Part shown: one piece after another, positions 17,035 through 35,901 of the stretch | How the letters are laid out: each line of letters starts with the position of its first letter | Position numbering within the stretch: the stretch's first letter is position 1 | Origin: a virus | Reading direction: 5' to 3' (one strand) | DNA: 64,000 nt | IMG/VR virus record: IMGVR_UViG_3300013006_000027 | Location: 14,428 to 78,427 of that record | Translations under genes and position numbers: made by a program | The notes under the pieces: model-generated | The model's input: only the letters and a program-made list of their open reading frames with translations | Databases searched by the model: none | Told to the model about the DNA's origin: nothing

Positions 17035-17752
17035 CGCAATTTGGTCCGTGACCATGCCTGCCGAAATTTGATGAATCCAAAGTTTTACCACATTTCTCAC
17101 AGGTCTTTTTTAATCTTGGCGGATGTTTCTTTGTCTTTTTAATAAGCCCTGTGAATATTTTACAATTTTCGCCGTGCGATCTGTTATAGTTAGCACTATC
17201 CATAACGTTATTACAATGGATACAGGTAATTTTTTTCTGAGAACAGTGTAAACCTCTTTCTATTTGTTCTAGAACATGTTTTTTATGAAATTCTTTGTTT
17301 TGTAAAATCCATGAACCTTCTTTAATTTTTTGTTGGATTATTTTGTCTCGTTCTTTGTTAGCCTTAGTTAAGTTTTCTTTATTTTGAAAACCTAAAATAC
17401 CTTTTTGTGCTCTCGCCTGGCTGGACCTTTTTTGAATTTCTCCACCCAATAAATGATGCGTCCCATTAAGAACTCTCAGCTTATTTTGTTGTCTATTCAA
17501 CCTCGTAAGTGTTTCAGGATCTACACCAAGTTTTCTACCAATTAATACACAGGCAGCGTAATCTTTTTGAAAAAGATGTATATCGTAATGTTCTTGTAAA
17601 GTGACCGCTATTAAATTAATTGGATCATTATTATTATGATTCCCATCTACATGATGAATTTCATAACTTCTTCCGTTTGGTTCTTTTGGAATTTTACCGT
17701 AATGATTTTCATAAATCCTACGGTGTTTGTTAGTACCGCAATAAATACACAT
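17027..17752 (-). CDS. Free-standing HNH homing endonuclease
   Basis: HRRIYE..YG.IP...YEIHHVDGNHNNNDPINL.AVTLQEHY.IH; two C-terminal CxxC...HGxNC repeats; GAGGAG RBS. Confidence 0.9.
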   Translation of the reverse strand: MCIYCGTNKHRRIYENHYGKIPKEPNGRSYEIHHVDGNHNNNDPINLIAVTLQEHYDIHLFQKDYAACVLIGRKLGVDPETLTRLNRQQNKLRVLNGTHHLLGGEIQKRSSQARAQKGILGFQNKENLTKANKERDKIIQQKIKEGSWILQNKEFHKKHVLEQIERGLHCSQKKITCIHCNNVMDSANYNRSHGENCKIFTGLIKKTKKHPPRLKKTCEKCGKTLDSSNFGRHGHGPNCVR

Positions 17753-17820
17753 GCTGATGCTCCTCAATAGCGTTAGAGTAGTTGGGAATCCCCATTCCGC
17801 GAACTACACTTTTATTTATC
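17753..17820 (-). promoter_or_regulatory. Late promoter + structured leader (copy 1)
   Basis: GATAAATAAAAGTGTAGTTCGCGG..CCAACTACTCTAA..AGGA.CATCAGCATG; second copy at 35833-35901. Confidence 0.8.
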
Positions 17821-17829
17821 CCGTTTAAC

Positions 17830-17858
17830 TTGTATATTTGATTGTTATGTGCTATTCT
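17830..17858 (+). promoter_or_regulatory. Outward sigma70-like promoter at the element edge
   Basis: TTGTAT-17-TATTCT. Confidence 0.5.
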
Positions 17859-17907
17859 TAACAATCATTAAACAGCCGGCATGGAAGATATTCAAATAGG
17901 ATAAAAT

Positions 17908-33137: not shown

Positions 33138-33395
33138 ATGCAGAAAAAAACTCGTAGCCTTTTGGAAGAATTAGAAGCTTTAGGCGATAATCGTGATGTA
33201 AATCATATTATTGAGAACCGAGCCCACAACATTATTACCAGTGCTATTAATTTATTAGAACTAATTAATAAGCATTATGATAGTGAGAGATCGGAAATCT
33301 TAGAAAGAAAGCTATTAAGTGCTATAAAAGGCAGAGACCAAACTAGGTTTGCAAAATCATTAAGGAAGAAAAATGAAGCTCCAGGAAATCAATGA
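33138..33395 (+). CDS. Hypothetical late protein
   Basis: ATAAATA 4 nt before ATG. Confidence 0.7.
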   Translation: MQKKTRSLLEELEALGDNRDVNHIIENRAHNIITSAINLLELINKHYDSERSEILERKLLSAIKGRDQTRFAKSLRKKNEAPGNQ

Positions 33396-34560
33396 GGCAT
33401 CGGTAAATGAAGAAGGGATCATAGGGCGTGGTGTTGCCGCTGCTCAGCAGCTTGGTTCTAAACTAATTGGTAGTGAGTTAAGCCGAATGTCTGTCACTGA
33501 TAGACATGCCATGAATATCTTTATTAAAGATTTTCTTGATAAAGTTTCAGTTGCATTAGGTGTTGCTGTTAAAAGTAGCGTAGTTGACCCTACTATAGTA
33601 GATACTTCAAGTGTAAGCAGTGGGGGAGGAGCAATTAAACCTACTGGTGCACCATTAAGTCAGTTAGGAAAACAAACACAACAACAGATGTTAGCTCAAC
33701 GAGCGGCTAATGCAGCTCCAGGTACAGGTAGAAAACCTTCAGCTCCTGGTCAACCAGCAGCACCGACGGCTGCTGCCCCAACAGCACCCACATTACCAGC
33801 AGCGCCGGCGGCTCCCGCGACACCATTAACTGATTTTGGCACTGTTGGGGCCAAAAGAGCGGAAAGGGCTCAGGCAAGAGCAGCGATTCCTGATCCAGAT
33901 CTTAATGTAGGAAGAAGAGAACCTAAGGTAGGCTCACTAAGTGAAACACAATATCAAAAATTAAATTCAATTTTTGAAAGCATTCTTCTTACCGAAGCAA
34001 AAAGCATAGCTACTTTTGTCAAAGATTTCCTTAATACCAATGTACCACAACTTAATACTAAAGATCCTGATATTGCCAAAGCCTTAGATAAACTTATTGC
34101 TCAAGTTCAAACTGATTGGACTAAAGATAAAGGTAAAAGTGCATTCACCAAATTAGCACAAGCAGCTTACCTCTTGGCTAAAGTTCCAACCTCTAGTGGC
34201 ACTGGTGGACAACTAGGTTCCAAAACACAAGGACCAGCAGGTGCACAAGGACAAGCAGGTGCACAAGGTACTAGAACTCAGGGAGCAGGTGCTACTCAAG
34301 CAGCTCCTGATATAGCACAATATACTAATAATATATTGTCACAAATTAATAGAATGCAAAGAAATGATGCGGATGATTTAGATGCTATTATTATGAATTC
34401 TTTGCGTAGATTATATAAAGTTAACTCTTCTGCCTATATGGACACTGCACAACATCTTAAAACAATGCTCCAAACTAGTGCGCCAGTTACACCTGCACCT
34501 ACACAAGGCCCACCCAATCTATCAATAGCTAGAGAATCTAAAAACAGAGTTAGAAAATGA
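33373..34560 (+). CDS. Putative processed internal head protein, Ala/Pro-rich
   Basis: MKLQEINE leader; VNE, LSE, LTE sites. Confidence 0.55.
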   Translation: MKLQEINEASVNEEGIIGRGVAAAQQLGSKLIGSELSRMSVTDRHAMNIFIKDFLDKVSVALGVAVKSSVVDPTIVDTSSVSSGGGAIKPTGAPLSQLGKQTQQQMLAQRAANAAPGTGRKPSAPGQPAAPTAAAPTAPTLPAAPAAPATPLTDFGTVGAKRAERAQARAAIPDPDLNVGRREPKVGSLSETQYQKLNSIFESILLTEAKSIATFVKDFLNTNVPQLNTKDPDIAKALDKLIAQVQTDWTKDKGKSAFTKLAQAAYLLAKVPTSSGTGGQLGSKTQGPAGAQGQAGAQGTRTQGAGATQAAPDIAQYTNNILSQINRMQRNDADDLDAIIMNSLRRLYKVNSSAYMDTAQHLKTMLQTSAPVTPAPTQGPPNLSIARESKNRVRK

Positions 34561-35714
34561 ATTTGACTGAATCATTAGCCTCTCTTAGAAATAAGTTAGA
34601 AACTATTGATGTCCCTTTATTAACTGAAGACAAGGGACACTTGGATCATCCTGAGGATTTGGTATTTTTAGGAGATGTTACTGGTGCTAATCGGGCAGTA
34701 GATGCAATTGCAAAAACAGTTACAAATCCAAAAACTGTTACTATTAAGTGGGATGGATATCCTGCTCTTATATTTGGGCGTGATACTAATGGTAAATTTA
34801 GTATCATGGACAAACATATGTTCAACAAGAAAGATGGTACTGGAAGACAAGTTTATAGTCCTGAAGAATTTAGAAAATATGATATAGACCGTGGGGTAGA
34901 TCGTTCTGATTTACATAGACTAATAGCTGAAATTTGGTCTGGTCTAGAAAAAGCAAGTAATGGAACTAAAGGTTATTACTGGGGAGACTTACTCTTCAAT
35001 AAGCCACTAGCCGATAATAATGGATTGTACACATTCAAAGCTAACCCTAATGGCATAACATACACCGTAGACATTAATAGCGACACAGGTAAGTTGATGA
35101 AAGGCAAAACTGCTGGTATAGCAGTACATCAATATATAACTCCTGAGGCCCCCAATACTGATTCTGCTGTGCCATTGGATGGAACGATAGGACAGCTTAA
35201 GAACAATAGTAACGTTGCTATTATTCCTAGCAAAATGCCTATTACTCCTAACTTGAAACTAGATCAAAAGTTATTAGCTAAAACTAAACAAGATATTTTA
35301 AAATATGGTCAGGCTGTTGACCAGTTAATGAATTCAGCACCGCAAGCTAGAAATACATTTAATCAACTGTTTACCGTGTATATTAATAAGCGTATTGTAG
35401 GTGGTAACTTAAATGATTTATTATCAGGATTTATGGAGTTTATCGCAAGTAGACCCATGACTGACAAGATGAGAGCCAAGATAGATGAGCATCTACAAGT
35501 TAATAAAGAAGGGTTGATTGGTGCATTTACTATATGGATGGATATTTATAATCTTAAGATGAATGTAGTTGAACAACTAAACAAAGCCGCTGAAGCTAGT
35601 CCTGTAAAAGGATATTTACAAGATGGTACACAAACTCAAGAAGGATTTGTTTCTAATGGTCTTAAGTTTGTAGATAGAATGGGCTTCAGCAGACAGAACC
35701 TCCAGGGTCGCTGA
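34557..35714 (+). CDS. DUF6267-like protein with ligase/nucleotidyltransferase motifs
   Basis: HLDHPED, TIKWDG (KxDG), WGDLLF, EGFV, LKFVDR. Confidence 0.65.
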   Translation: MNLTESLASLRNKLETIDVPLLTEDKGHLDHPEDLVFLGDVTGANRAVDAIAKTVTNPKTVTIKWDGYPALIFGRDTNGKFSIMDKHMFNKKDGTGRQVYSPEEFRKYDIDRGVDRSDLHRLIAEIWSGLEKASNGTKGYYWGDLLFNKPLADNNGLYTFKANPNGITYTVDINSDTGKLMKGKTAGIAVHQYITPEAPNTDSAVPLDGTIGQLKNNSNVAIIPSKMPITPNLKLDQKLLAKTKQDILKYGQAVDQLMNSAPQARNTFNQLFTVYINKRIVGGNLNDLLSGFMEFIASRPMTDKMRAKIDEHLQVNKEGLIGAFTIWMDIYNLKMNVVEQLNKAAEASPVKGYLQDGTQTQEGFVSNGLKFVDRMGFSRQNLQGR

Positions 35715-35832
35715 ATAATTTCCACCCTTTATAACTTTTTCTGTCGCCCCTAGACAGCGCAGAAGTATGCCCTTGACCTAGATATTTGAGGTCAGTTACA
35801 TTGTGGGTTTTCTTGTATAGATAAATAGTCAT
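35686..35832 (-). pseudogene. Internally deleted GIY-YIG-like homing endonuclease (48 aa)
   Basis: MTIYLYKKTHNVTDLKYLGQ fused to GHTSALSRGDRKSYKGWKL; carries the same leader as the HNH gene. Confidence 0.7.
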
Positions 35833-35901
35833 GCTGATGTTCCTTTACAACATTAGAGTAGTTGGGGTTTCCGAGGCCCGCGAACTACACTTTTATTTAT
35901 G
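35833..35901 (-). promoter_or_regulatory. Late promoter + structured leader (copy 2)
   Basis: Closely similar to 17753-17820, with compensatory changes. Confidence 0.8.

What the first reader, a model, noticed from the sequence alone, without database searches (positions are those of the whole stretch)
17741..35901. Conserved covarying RNA leader shared by two different homing-nuclease families
Seen on the minus strand at 17820-17753 and 35901-35833: ATAAATA-AAAGT-GTAGTT-CGC-[GGAAT..ATTCC or GGG..CCC]-C-AACTAC-TCTAA-[GCT..AGC or TGTT..AACA]-TCAGC-ATG. Both inner stems show compensatory changes, and the second stem encloses the AGGA RBS. One copy heads an HNH gene, the other a GIY-YIG-like remnant. 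Inference: a portable late-promoter/translation-control module, possibly protein- or ligand-responsive, that limits nuclease expression and travels independently of the nuclease domain.
Basis: partly seen in the sequence, partly recalled or inferred. Interest (0 to 1): 0.75.

Follow-up and report, generated by a model that had tools for sequence, protein, structure and literature searches.

The report
Antisense RNA cassette heading homing endonucleases
The two look-alike "leaders" are copies of a portable ~85-base cassette that starts many unrelated selfish DNA-cutting-enzyme genes in uncultured giant T4-like phages, and its conserved fold fits the strand opposite the gene, so it most likely makes a small antisense RNA that holds the nuclease in check.

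Summary
Both copies sit at the stated coordinates. The same cassette occurs in at least 118 IMG/VR contigs and 13 times in each of two near-complete jumbo phage genomes. It heads HNH, HNH_3, HNH_5, GIY-YIG/Seg-like and NUMOD3 endonuclease genes or their remnants.

Covariation is strong. In a sample chosen by protein, not by RNA pattern, 17 of 19 pairs show compensatory changes.

The fold, however, belongs to the strand opposite the nuclease gene.
- Wobble pairs are G.U on that strand, 125 against 5 and 202 against 18.
- The "unpaired" conserved TCTAA and TCAGC pair with each other only there.
- That strand folds better in 86 of 102 copies.

A TATTTA box lies just after the ATG, kept in all three reading frames. 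It is an inverted copy of the phage's late-promoter box, 5 nt from the antisense hairpin.

Best reading: two face-to-face late promoters give the nuclease mRNA and a roughly 67-nt cis-antisense RNA covering its 5' UTR, SD and AUG. This is analogous to IS10 RNA-OUT. No transcript data exist.

The cassette is not in Rfam, not in the papers searched and not in the four nearest cultured phages. Earlier follow-ups in this scan reached the same reading on other genomes.

The parts
17813..17819 (-). Copy 1: late-promoter box ATAAATA for the HNH gene. A 5-nt spacer puts the predicted +1 at G 17807.
   Evidence: The spacer is 5 nt in 130 of 154 copies. The same motif lies upstream of structural genes.
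17778..17807 (+). Copy 1: bipartite hairpin P1' (6-bp outer stem, a G-C pair in the internal loop, 5-bp inner stem). It is followed on the + strand by the U-rich tail ACUUUUAUUUAU (17808-17819).
   Evidence: all 11 pairs covary in the protein-selected sample.
17754..17776 (+). Copy 1: hairpin P2', 8 bp on the + strand (CUGAUGCU / AGCGUUAG with two G.U pairs). The loop CCUCAAU carries the anti-SD.
17753..17819 (+). Copy 1: predicted cis-antisense RNA of about 67 nt. It is complementary to the HNH mRNA from +1 through the SD to the base before the AUG.
   Evidence: strand folding gives -18.2 kcal/mol, z -3.26. No transcript data.
17741..17747 (+). Copy 1: inverted late-promoter box ATAAATA, lying inside codons 3-4 of the HNH gene (TATTTAT on the gene strand). 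It is 5 nt from the predicted antisense +1.
17030..17752 (-). Copy 1: HNH_3 homing endonuclease gene (241 aa), inserted after uvsY.
35894..35900 (-). Copy 2: late-promoter box ATAAATA for the endonuclease remnant.
35858..35888 (+). Copy 2: hairpin P1'. Its inner stem is longer on the + strand through G.U pairs. The tail ACUUUUAUUUAU follows at 35889-35900.
35834..35856 (+). Copy 2: hairpin P2' (CUGAUGUU / AACAUUAG), loop CCUUUAC.
35833..35900 (+). Copy 2: predicted cis-antisense RNA of about 68 nt.
   Evidence: strand folding gives -18.4 kcal/mol, z -2.51.
35820..35827 (+). Copy 2: inverted late-promoter box GATAAATA inside codons 3-5 of the remnant ORF.
35689..35832 (-). Copy 2: 48-aa remnant of a Seg-like/NUMOD3 endonuclease gene. 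The RNA cassette is intact although the gene is decayed.

Best explanation
Each copy is a compact two-promoter control cassette that belongs to free-standing homing endonuclease genes of uncultured T4-related jumbo myophages.

On the gene strand, a late-promoter box (N-A/C-TAAATA) fires 5 nt upstream of the cassette and gives the nuclease mRNA.

On the other strand, a second late-promoter box is written into the first three to five codons of the nuclease. It shows on the gene strand as TATTTA, kept in any reading frame. It fires back towards the first promoter.

Its product is inferred to be a 65-75-nt RNA with this layout:
- a 5' G;
- an 8-bp hairpin P2' whose loop holds the anti-Shine-Dalgarno;
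- one A;
- a bipartite hairpin P1';
- a U-rich tail, which is the complement of the first promoter.

This RNA is fully complementary to the mRNA's 5' UTR, SD and start-codon region. By pairing with it, probably starting loop to loop, it would block ribosome binding and/or expose the duplex to RNase III. Convergent transcription adds interference. Nuclease output would thus stay low even at late times.

Shown here: the sequence family, its link to nuclease genes, the covariation, the strand of the fold, and the conservation and spacing of both promoter boxes.

Inferred: that the inverted box is an active promoter, that the RNA ends at the U-rich tail, and that it represses the nuclease.
For: 1. 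Family and linkage.
- There are 13 copies each in a complete 360-kb genome and a 92%-complete 333-kb genome.
- Almost every copy examined heads an endonuclease ORF or a remnant of one; two lack a parsable start.
- Of 80 loci picked by GIY-YIG protein similarity alone, 68 carry the cassette at the gene start.

2. Covariation on the opposite strand.
- 107 distinct copies: 98.3% standard pairs, and 14 of 19 pairs changed on both sides.
- Independent protein-selected set of 63 copies: 99.1% paired, 17 of 19 pairs compensatory, score 0.673 against 0.207 shuffled, 0 of 500 shuffles as high, and slid controls 31-49% paired.

3. Strand of the fold.
- The same columns read on the gene strand give only 89% standard pairs.
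- G.U pairs number 202 against 18, and 125 against 5, in favour of the opposite strand.
- The asymmetry was first seen on an alignment fitted to the gene strand: A.C 82 against G.U 7.
- TCTAA and TCAGC form CUGA/UUAG with an invariant G.U and covarying neighbours, on the opposite strand only.
- Alignment-free MFE: the opposite strand is more stable in 86 of 102 copies, Wilcoxon 7e-16.
- Window copies give z -3.3 and -2.5, against -1.0 and -1.1 for the mRNA strand.

4. Inverted promoter.
- TATTTA follows the ATG at offsets 5, 3 and 4 (111, 27 and 16 copies), which is all three frames.
- TAAATA is present in 146 of 159 distinct copies. It lies 5 nt (111 copies) from a purine +1 (G 147, A 12), one base before P2'.
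- The sense box has the same geometry relative to P1.
- The box is kept whether the upstream neighbour is divergent (62 of 64) or co-directional (35 of 38).

5. Late-promoter identity. The same motif sits upstream of sheath and other virion genes in the window, next to separate sigma-70-type early promoters. NATAAATA is the published late promoter of T4-like cyanophages (PMC2984593).
Against: - There are no transcript data of any kind.
- The box TAAATA is short. The base two positions before it is mostly A in the inverted box, against G in the sense and generic late promoters, so the inverted promoter may be weak.
- The P1' hairpin has an AU-rich base and two non-U bases before the U run. A simple terminator scan does not call it.
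- About 95% of pairs are also intact on the mRNA strand, so an additional role of the mRNA hairpins is not excluded.
- Cassettes persist intact next to decayed nuclease genes, including copy 2 here and about a dozen others. That is unexpected if the RNA's only job is to restrain the nuclease.
Confidence: 0.6

Rival explanations
1. Folded mRNA leader with a T4-style late switch, which is the first reader's line and follows the I-TevI / mobE / segB paradigm. Read-through transcripts contain the promoter box AUAAAUA. It pairs with UAUUUAU just after the AUG and closes the translation start. Transcripts from the late promoter lack the 5' arm and are translated.
For: - The paradigm is shown experimentally for T-even endonucleases (PMC2988022; PMC3014915).
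- The two boxes are complementary. In isolated 91-nt RNAs they pair with mean probability 0.53.
Against: - With 70 nt of real upstream context the predicted opening is small: SD unpaired 0.47 against 0.54, and AUG 0.33 against 0.42.
- The helix is only 6 A-U pairs. The flanking positions gave no sign that it extends, though the table is uninformative.
- 64 of 102 copies have a divergent upstream gene, so there is little read-through to guard against, yet they keep the box.
- The model does not explain why wobble pairs and the TCTAA/TCAGC helix fit only the other strand.
Confidence: 0.1
2. Outward 'repair' promoter. The inverted late box exists to transcribe the phage gene lying beyond the cassette, offsetting the polarity caused by the insertion. 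The hairpins are then a stabilising 5' leader of that neighbour's mRNA. Repression of the nuclease is incidental.
For: - Promoters for neighbouring genes embedded in seg and mob coding regions are known in T4 (PMC2988022).
- 63% of copies lie antiparallel to their upstream neighbour.
- Only 22 of 64 such neighbours have their own TAAATA box in the gap.
- Intact cassettes survive next to decayed nuclease genes.
Against: - The box is just as conserved when the upstream gene is co-directional and ends within about 14 nt of the cassette (35 of 38). There the transcript could only run antisense into that gene.
- In copy 2 of the window the neighbour has its own TATAAATA, 27 nt further on.
- The hairpin plus U-rich tail would hinder read-through.
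Confidence: 0.15
3. A signal on the opposite strand that acts on passing transcripts or on single-stranded DNA. Examples are a terminator or insulator, an RNase III processing site for host-operon RNA reading through the inverted nuclease gene, or a DNA hairpin used in recombination. No dedicated small RNA is made.
For: - The hairpin is followed by a U-rich tract.
- G.T wobbles are also tolerated in DNA hairpins.
- Most copies are antiparallel to flanking genes.
Against: - The model does not explain a promoter-like box kept in three reading frames at a fixed 5 +/- 1 nt from the first hairpin.
- A terminator would not need P2'.
- The window's real terminators are GC-rich stems with long T runs and look different.
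- The terminator scan does not call it.
Confidence: 0.1

Closest known systems
IS10/Tn10 RNA-OUT / RNA-IN (PMC5006887)
   Same: - A mobile element controls its own DNA-cutting enzyme.
- It uses a small (69-nt) stem-loop RNA made from a promoter inside the 5' end of the gene, facing the gene's own promoter.
- The RNA is complementary to the translation initiation region and blocks ribosome binding.
- Its effect grows with copy number. Here there are up to 13 copies per genome, sharing conserved segments.
   Different: - There is no sequence or Rfam relationship.
- The overlap is the whole 5' UTR, about 60 nt, rather than 35 nt.
- There are two hairpins rather than one.
- Both promoters are phage late promoters.
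- The controlled genes are homing endonucleases of several families in lytic phages.
- Nothing has been shown experimentally here.
Late promoter plus RBS-sequestering hairpin of T-even homing endonucleases: I-TevI, I-TevII, I-TevIII, segB, Aeh1 mobE (PMC2988022; PMC3014915)
   Same: - The genes are homing endonucleases of T4-related phages.
- A late-promoter box lies immediately upstream.
- RNA structure surrounds the SD.
- The shared theme is limiting nuclease expression.
   Different: - Those hairpins are gene-specific, stable, lie on the mRNA strand and form only in read-through RNA.
- Here one conserved sequence family serves many nuclease families.
- The fold fits the opposite strand.
- A second, inverted promoter box is part of the unit.
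CfrI antisense RNA of cyanophage S-PM2 (Millard et al. 2010, as described in PMC2984593)
   Same: It is an antisense RNA overlapping a homing endonuclease gene in a T4-like phage.
   Different: - CfrI is about 225 nt long.
- It links the endonuclease gene to psbA.
- It is a single locus, its function is unknown, and it is not a portable 5' cassette.
- No similarity was tested, because its sequence is not held here.
PeSL mobile regulatory cassettes of T4-type phages
   Same: They are short promoter-plus-stem-loop modules repeated through a T4-type genome and are thought to move genes about.
   Different: PeSLs carry early sigma-70 promoters and flank novel ORFs of plastic regions. They are not tied to endonucleases and have no facing promoter.

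Membership tests
T-even endonuclease late-promoter / RBS-hairpin leaders | A late promoter lies immediately upstream of the endonuclease ORF. | tested here: met
   TAAATA box, 5 nt before the cassette in 130 of 154 copies. The same motif precedes virion genes.
T-even endonuclease late-promoter / RBS-hairpin leaders | A stable hairpin sequesters the SD/AUG only in transcripts that start upstream of the late promoter. | tested here: not met
   Only a 6-bp A-U box pairing is available. Predicted SD accessibility is 0.47 in read-through RNA against 0.54 in late RNA.
T-even endonuclease late-promoter / RBS-hairpin leaders | The regulatory fold is on the mRNA strand. | tested here: not met
   G.U pairs 125 against 5 and 202 against 18 favour the other strand; 89% against 98-99% standard pairs.
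IS10 RNA-OUT-type cis-antisense control | A promoter inside the 5' end of the gene faces the gene's own promoter. | tested here: inconclusive
   The motif is present in 146 of 159 copies, kept in three frames at a fixed spacing. Its activity has not been shown.
IS10 RNA-OUT-type cis-antisense control | A small, stably folded RNA is complementary to the translation initiation region. | tested here: met
   In silico only: covarying two-hairpin fold, -18 kcal/mol, z -2.5 to -3.3, covering SD and start.
IS10 RNA-OUT-type cis-antisense control | The antisense transcript exists and represses translation. | not testable with these tools
   No expression data are available.
IS10 RNA-OUT-type cis-antisense control | Homology to the RNA-OUT family. 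| tested here: not met
   No Rfam family matched at gathering score or at E up to 10 over the cassette. The resemblance is analogy, not membership.
Rho-independent terminator | A GC-rich uninterrupted stem is followed directly by a T run. | tested here: inconclusive
   The consensus scan calls nothing at either copy. The hairpin has internal bulges and is followed by AC before UUUUAUUUAU.
Any curated Rfam family | A covariance-model match. | tested here: not met

The most novel reading that the evidence does not exclude
A widespread, undescribed family of cis-antisense small RNAs is built into the start of homing endonuclease genes. It is transcribed from a late promoter hidden in the first codons. 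It acts both in cis and, through the segments shared by the up to 13 copies per genome, in trans. This would work as a copy-number-sensing brake ('multicopy inhibition') on the total nuclease load of a giant phage.
Probability: 0.3. Interest if true: 0.85.

Novelty: new variant of a known kind. Interest (0 to 1): 0.78.

Why it matters
Homing endonucleases are the commonest selfish genes of large phages. How phages tolerate a dozen or more of them is understood only for a few T4 genes, and only through mRNA hairpins.

A single portable cassette that serves unrelated nuclease families would be a new and general solution. It uses an antisense RNA plus face-to-face late promoters. It would also be the first conserved antisense-RNA family tied to homing endonucleases.

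It is a clean case for RNA-motif hunters. The covariation is genuine, but wobble-pair asymmetry shows that the obvious strand is the wrong one.

The cassette also marks nuclease-gene starts and remnants in metagenomic phage contigs. It is small enough to test directly with reporters.

Tried and rejected
- Rfam, both strands, at gathering and permissive thresholds: nothing over the cassette.
- blastn of the cassette and its surroundings against 50,697 phage records: no match.
- Covariance-model search of the four nearest cultured jumbo phages by terminase (PA5oct, Phosso, GAP32, Atu_ph07): only one chance-level hit.
- T4-style read-through switch: the boxes can pair in isolation, but the predicted change in accessibility is small. 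The flanking-position table showed no extension but is uninformative, because the pairing bases are too rare.
- Pseudoknot or other long-range contacts: mutual information over all columns returns only the annotated helices.
- Protein-level explanation of TATTTA (the 'IY' of GIY-YIG): rejected for three reasons. The box occurs in three frames. Codon 2 always ends in T. HNH families without that motif carry it as an N-terminal add-on.
- Small peptide on the opposite strand: copy 1 has a 26-codon frame (read by eye from the sequence). It is rejected because 1-nt indels in the cassette across copies break the frame.
- Simple terminator scan: no call.
- A 2023 catalogue of 8,495 unnamed candidate RNAs from IMG/VR (PMC10690425) may include this motif. 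Its tables are not held here, and its text mentions no endonuclease motif.
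Full report
**What is there**

The shared core occurs exactly twice in the window, with none expected by chance.

Copy 1 heads a 241-aa HNH_3 endonuclease inserted after uvsX and uvsY. Copy 2 heads a 48-aa remnant whose N-terminus matches a NUMOD3 / weakly SegE-like family.

The window is part of a 78-kb IMG/VR record judged 23% complete. It encodes a large terminase, sheath proteins, UvsX, UvsY and helicases. Its terminase is about 48% identical to those of PA5oct, Phosso and Atu_ph07. 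This is an uncultured T4-related jumbo myophage.

**How widespread it is**

- A covariance model found 13 copies in each of two near-complete genomes of 360 and 333 kb, plus 8 and 3 copies in two partial ones.
- Almost every copy examined sits at the start of an endonuclease ORF or a remnant of one; two copies lack a parsable start. Pfam finds NUMOD3 (28), HNH (11), HNH_3 (8), HNH_5 (5), GIY-YIG (3), the I-TevI DNA-binding domain (3) and SegE_GIY-YIG among 98 ORFs.
- I also sampled without using the RNA. Eighty loci were fetched by similarity to one GIY-YIG family, and 68 carry the cassette exactly at the gene start.
- The four nearest cultured phages have no copy, and blastn against 50,697 phage records finds nothing.
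- Three bacterial MAG contigs have it, all in Bacteroidota bins.

**Covariation is real**

On the gene-strand alignment, 12 of 14 pairs change on both sides, in 205 cells, and 0 of 500 shuffles score as high. Mutual information over all columns recovers these helices and nothing else, so there is no sign of a pseudoknot.

**The fold belongs to the other strand**

Four independent observations agree.

1. *Wobble asymmetry.* The non-Watson-Crick cells on the gene strand are A.C or C.A, not G.U.
   - There are 24 in helix interiors, 47 at the terminal pair of the SD stem and 11 at the G-C pair inside the internal loop, against 7 G.U in all.
   - An A.C on one strand is a G.U on the other.
   - Reading the same columns on both strands gives 98.3% against 89.3% standard pairs and 202 against 18 G.U pairs in 107 copies.
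   - In the 63 protein-selected copies the figures are 99.1% against 88.9%, and 125 against 5.
2. *The two conserved 'single-stranded' blocks pair only on the opposite strand.*
   - TCTAA and TCAGC become UUAG and CUGA there, and they extend the SD stem to 8 bp.
   - The helix holds an invariant G.U, which is A.C on the gene strand in 106 of 107 copies.
   - The neighbouring pairs covary: A-U, U-A, G-C and G.U at one, C-G and U-A at another.
3. *Alignment-free folding.* The opposite strand is more stable in 86 of 102 copies, with means of -15.7 against -12.3 kcal/mol and Wilcoxon 7e-16.
4. *The two window copies.* They fold to -18.2 and -18.4 kcal/mol with z -3.3 and -2.5 on the + strand. The mRNA leaders give -14.3 and -13.0 with z about -1.

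**A second promoter**

Directly after the ATG comes TATTTA. This is a nucleotide signal, not a protein signal.
- It occurs at offsets 5, 3 and 4 from the A of the start codon in 111, 27 and 16 copies: ATG-NNT-ATT-TA, ATG-TAT-TTA and ATG-NTA-TTT-A.
- Codon 2 always ends in T.
- HNH families that have no 'IY' motif carry the box as an N-terminal add-on.

On the opposite strand it reads TAAATA. It is present in 146 of 159 distinct copies, and six more have TAAGTA. It lies 5 nt (111 copies; 4 to 6 nt in 141) before a purine, G in 147 and A in 12, one base ahead of the first hairpin. That is the same geometry as the gene-strand box and its hairpin, where the spacer is 5 nt in 130 of 154 copies.

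In this window the motif (G/A)(A/C)TAAATA lies upstream of sheath and other virion genes. Small early-type genes instead carry TTGACA-N17-TATAAT promoters. NATAAATA is the reported late promoter of T4-like cyanophages (PMC2984593).

**Model**

Two late promoters face each other about 75 bp apart.
- One gives the nuclease mRNA, whose first base is the first base of hairpin P1.
- The other would give a 65-75-nt RNA. It consists of a G, hairpin P2' with the anti-SD in its loop, an A, the bipartite hairpin P1', and a U-rich tail that is the complement of the first promoter.

This RNA is complementary to the whole 5' UTR, SD and start region of the mRNA. By analogy with IS10 RNA-OUT it would block ribosome binding (PMC5006887). 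RNA-OUT is a 69-nt RNA from a promoter inside the transposase gene, complementary to the translation initiation region and more effective at higher copy number. RNase III cleavage and convergent-promoter interference are further plausible effects.

These steps are inferred. No RNA data exist.

**Rivals**

- *T4 paradigm.* In this model a late promoter lies in the 5' arm of an SD-sequestering hairpin (PMC2988022; PMC3014915). It is the obvious alternative, because the two boxes are complementary.
  - They pair in isolated RNAs with mean probability 0.53.
  - With real upstream context the predicted opening of the SD and AUG is slight.
  - The helix is six A-U pairs, and the flanking positions gave no sign that it extends, though the table is uninformative.
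  - Most copies have a divergent upstream gene (64 against 38).
- *Outward promoter for the neighbouring gene.* This fits T4 precedent, the antiparallel majority, and the survival of intact cassettes beside decayed nuclease genes.
  - But the box is equally conserved when the upstream gene is co-directional and abuts the cassette (35 of 38 against 62 of 64).
  - It may be a secondary benefit.
- *Pure terminator or DNA-hairpin reading.* This does not explain the promoter box or P2'.

**Comparison and novelty**

The cassette works like IS10 RNA-IN/RNA-OUT and shares a theme with T-even endonuclease leaders and with CfrI of S-PM2. It is a member of none of these. It has no Rfam match, it fails two defining features of the T-even leaders, and its architecture differs from CfrI.

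I found no description in the papers searched. A 2023 catalogue of unnamed IMG/VR RNA candidates could contain it, but its tables are not held.

Eight earlier follow-ups of this scan, on other genomes, reached the same antisense reading. I reached it from my own counts, before reading them. I took from them the IS10 reference.

**Verdict**

The RNA is most likely an antisense RNA, not a folded leader.

Noticed in passing
window 16996-17034 and 17872-17904: The HNH cassette is bracketed by two versions of the uvsY 3' end: ...KTAGMEDFTI* and an orphan TAGMEDIQIG*, with 18 of 20 nt identical. This suggests the element brought or left a recoded copy of its target. It also sets the mobile unit at about 860 bp, including roughly 50 nt beyond the cassette.
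   Followed up: partly
window 35689-35832 (also L133, L149, L128, L043, L076, L087, L060 and others): About a dozen cassettes are fully intact although the endonuclease ORF behind them is cut to 3-75 codons. The RNA unit may outlive the gene, or it may have a use of its own.
   Followed up: partly
window 18781-19406, 617-702, 48169-48268: Clear TTGACA-N17-TATAAT promoters stand before small genes, next to TAAATA-type late boxes before virion genes. The phage appears to have a two-tier early/late programme.
   Followed up: no
L161, L162, L163 (genome contigs): The only bacterial-genome hits are three MAG contigs, all binned as Bacteroidota (Mucilaginibacter, an uncultured Bacteroidetes, Haliscomenobacter). 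This is a host hint, although the window's strong SDs and sigma-70 consensus promoters are unusual for that phylum.
   Followed up: no
window 51739-55764 and 44944-46314: A 1341-aa ORF has a C-terminal half matching tail sheath (6e-200). A second, 456-aa sheath-like gene lies on the opposite strand. The sheath gene is unusually long or fused.
   Followed up: no
L175-L179, L188, L189, L217, L223, L235, L239, L242: Twelve of 80 close GIY-YIG homologues lack the cassette at E up to 1. The nuclease family therefore also exists with other or no leaders, which makes a natural comparison set.
   Followed up: no
L146, L141, L149, L144, L150 and others: In about 12% of copies the gene-strand promoter box lies 3 nt, not 5 nt, from the outer stem. 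This is often seen together with the GTGAGT/ACTCAC stem variant. The mRNA 5' end would then fall inside the stem.
   Followed up: no
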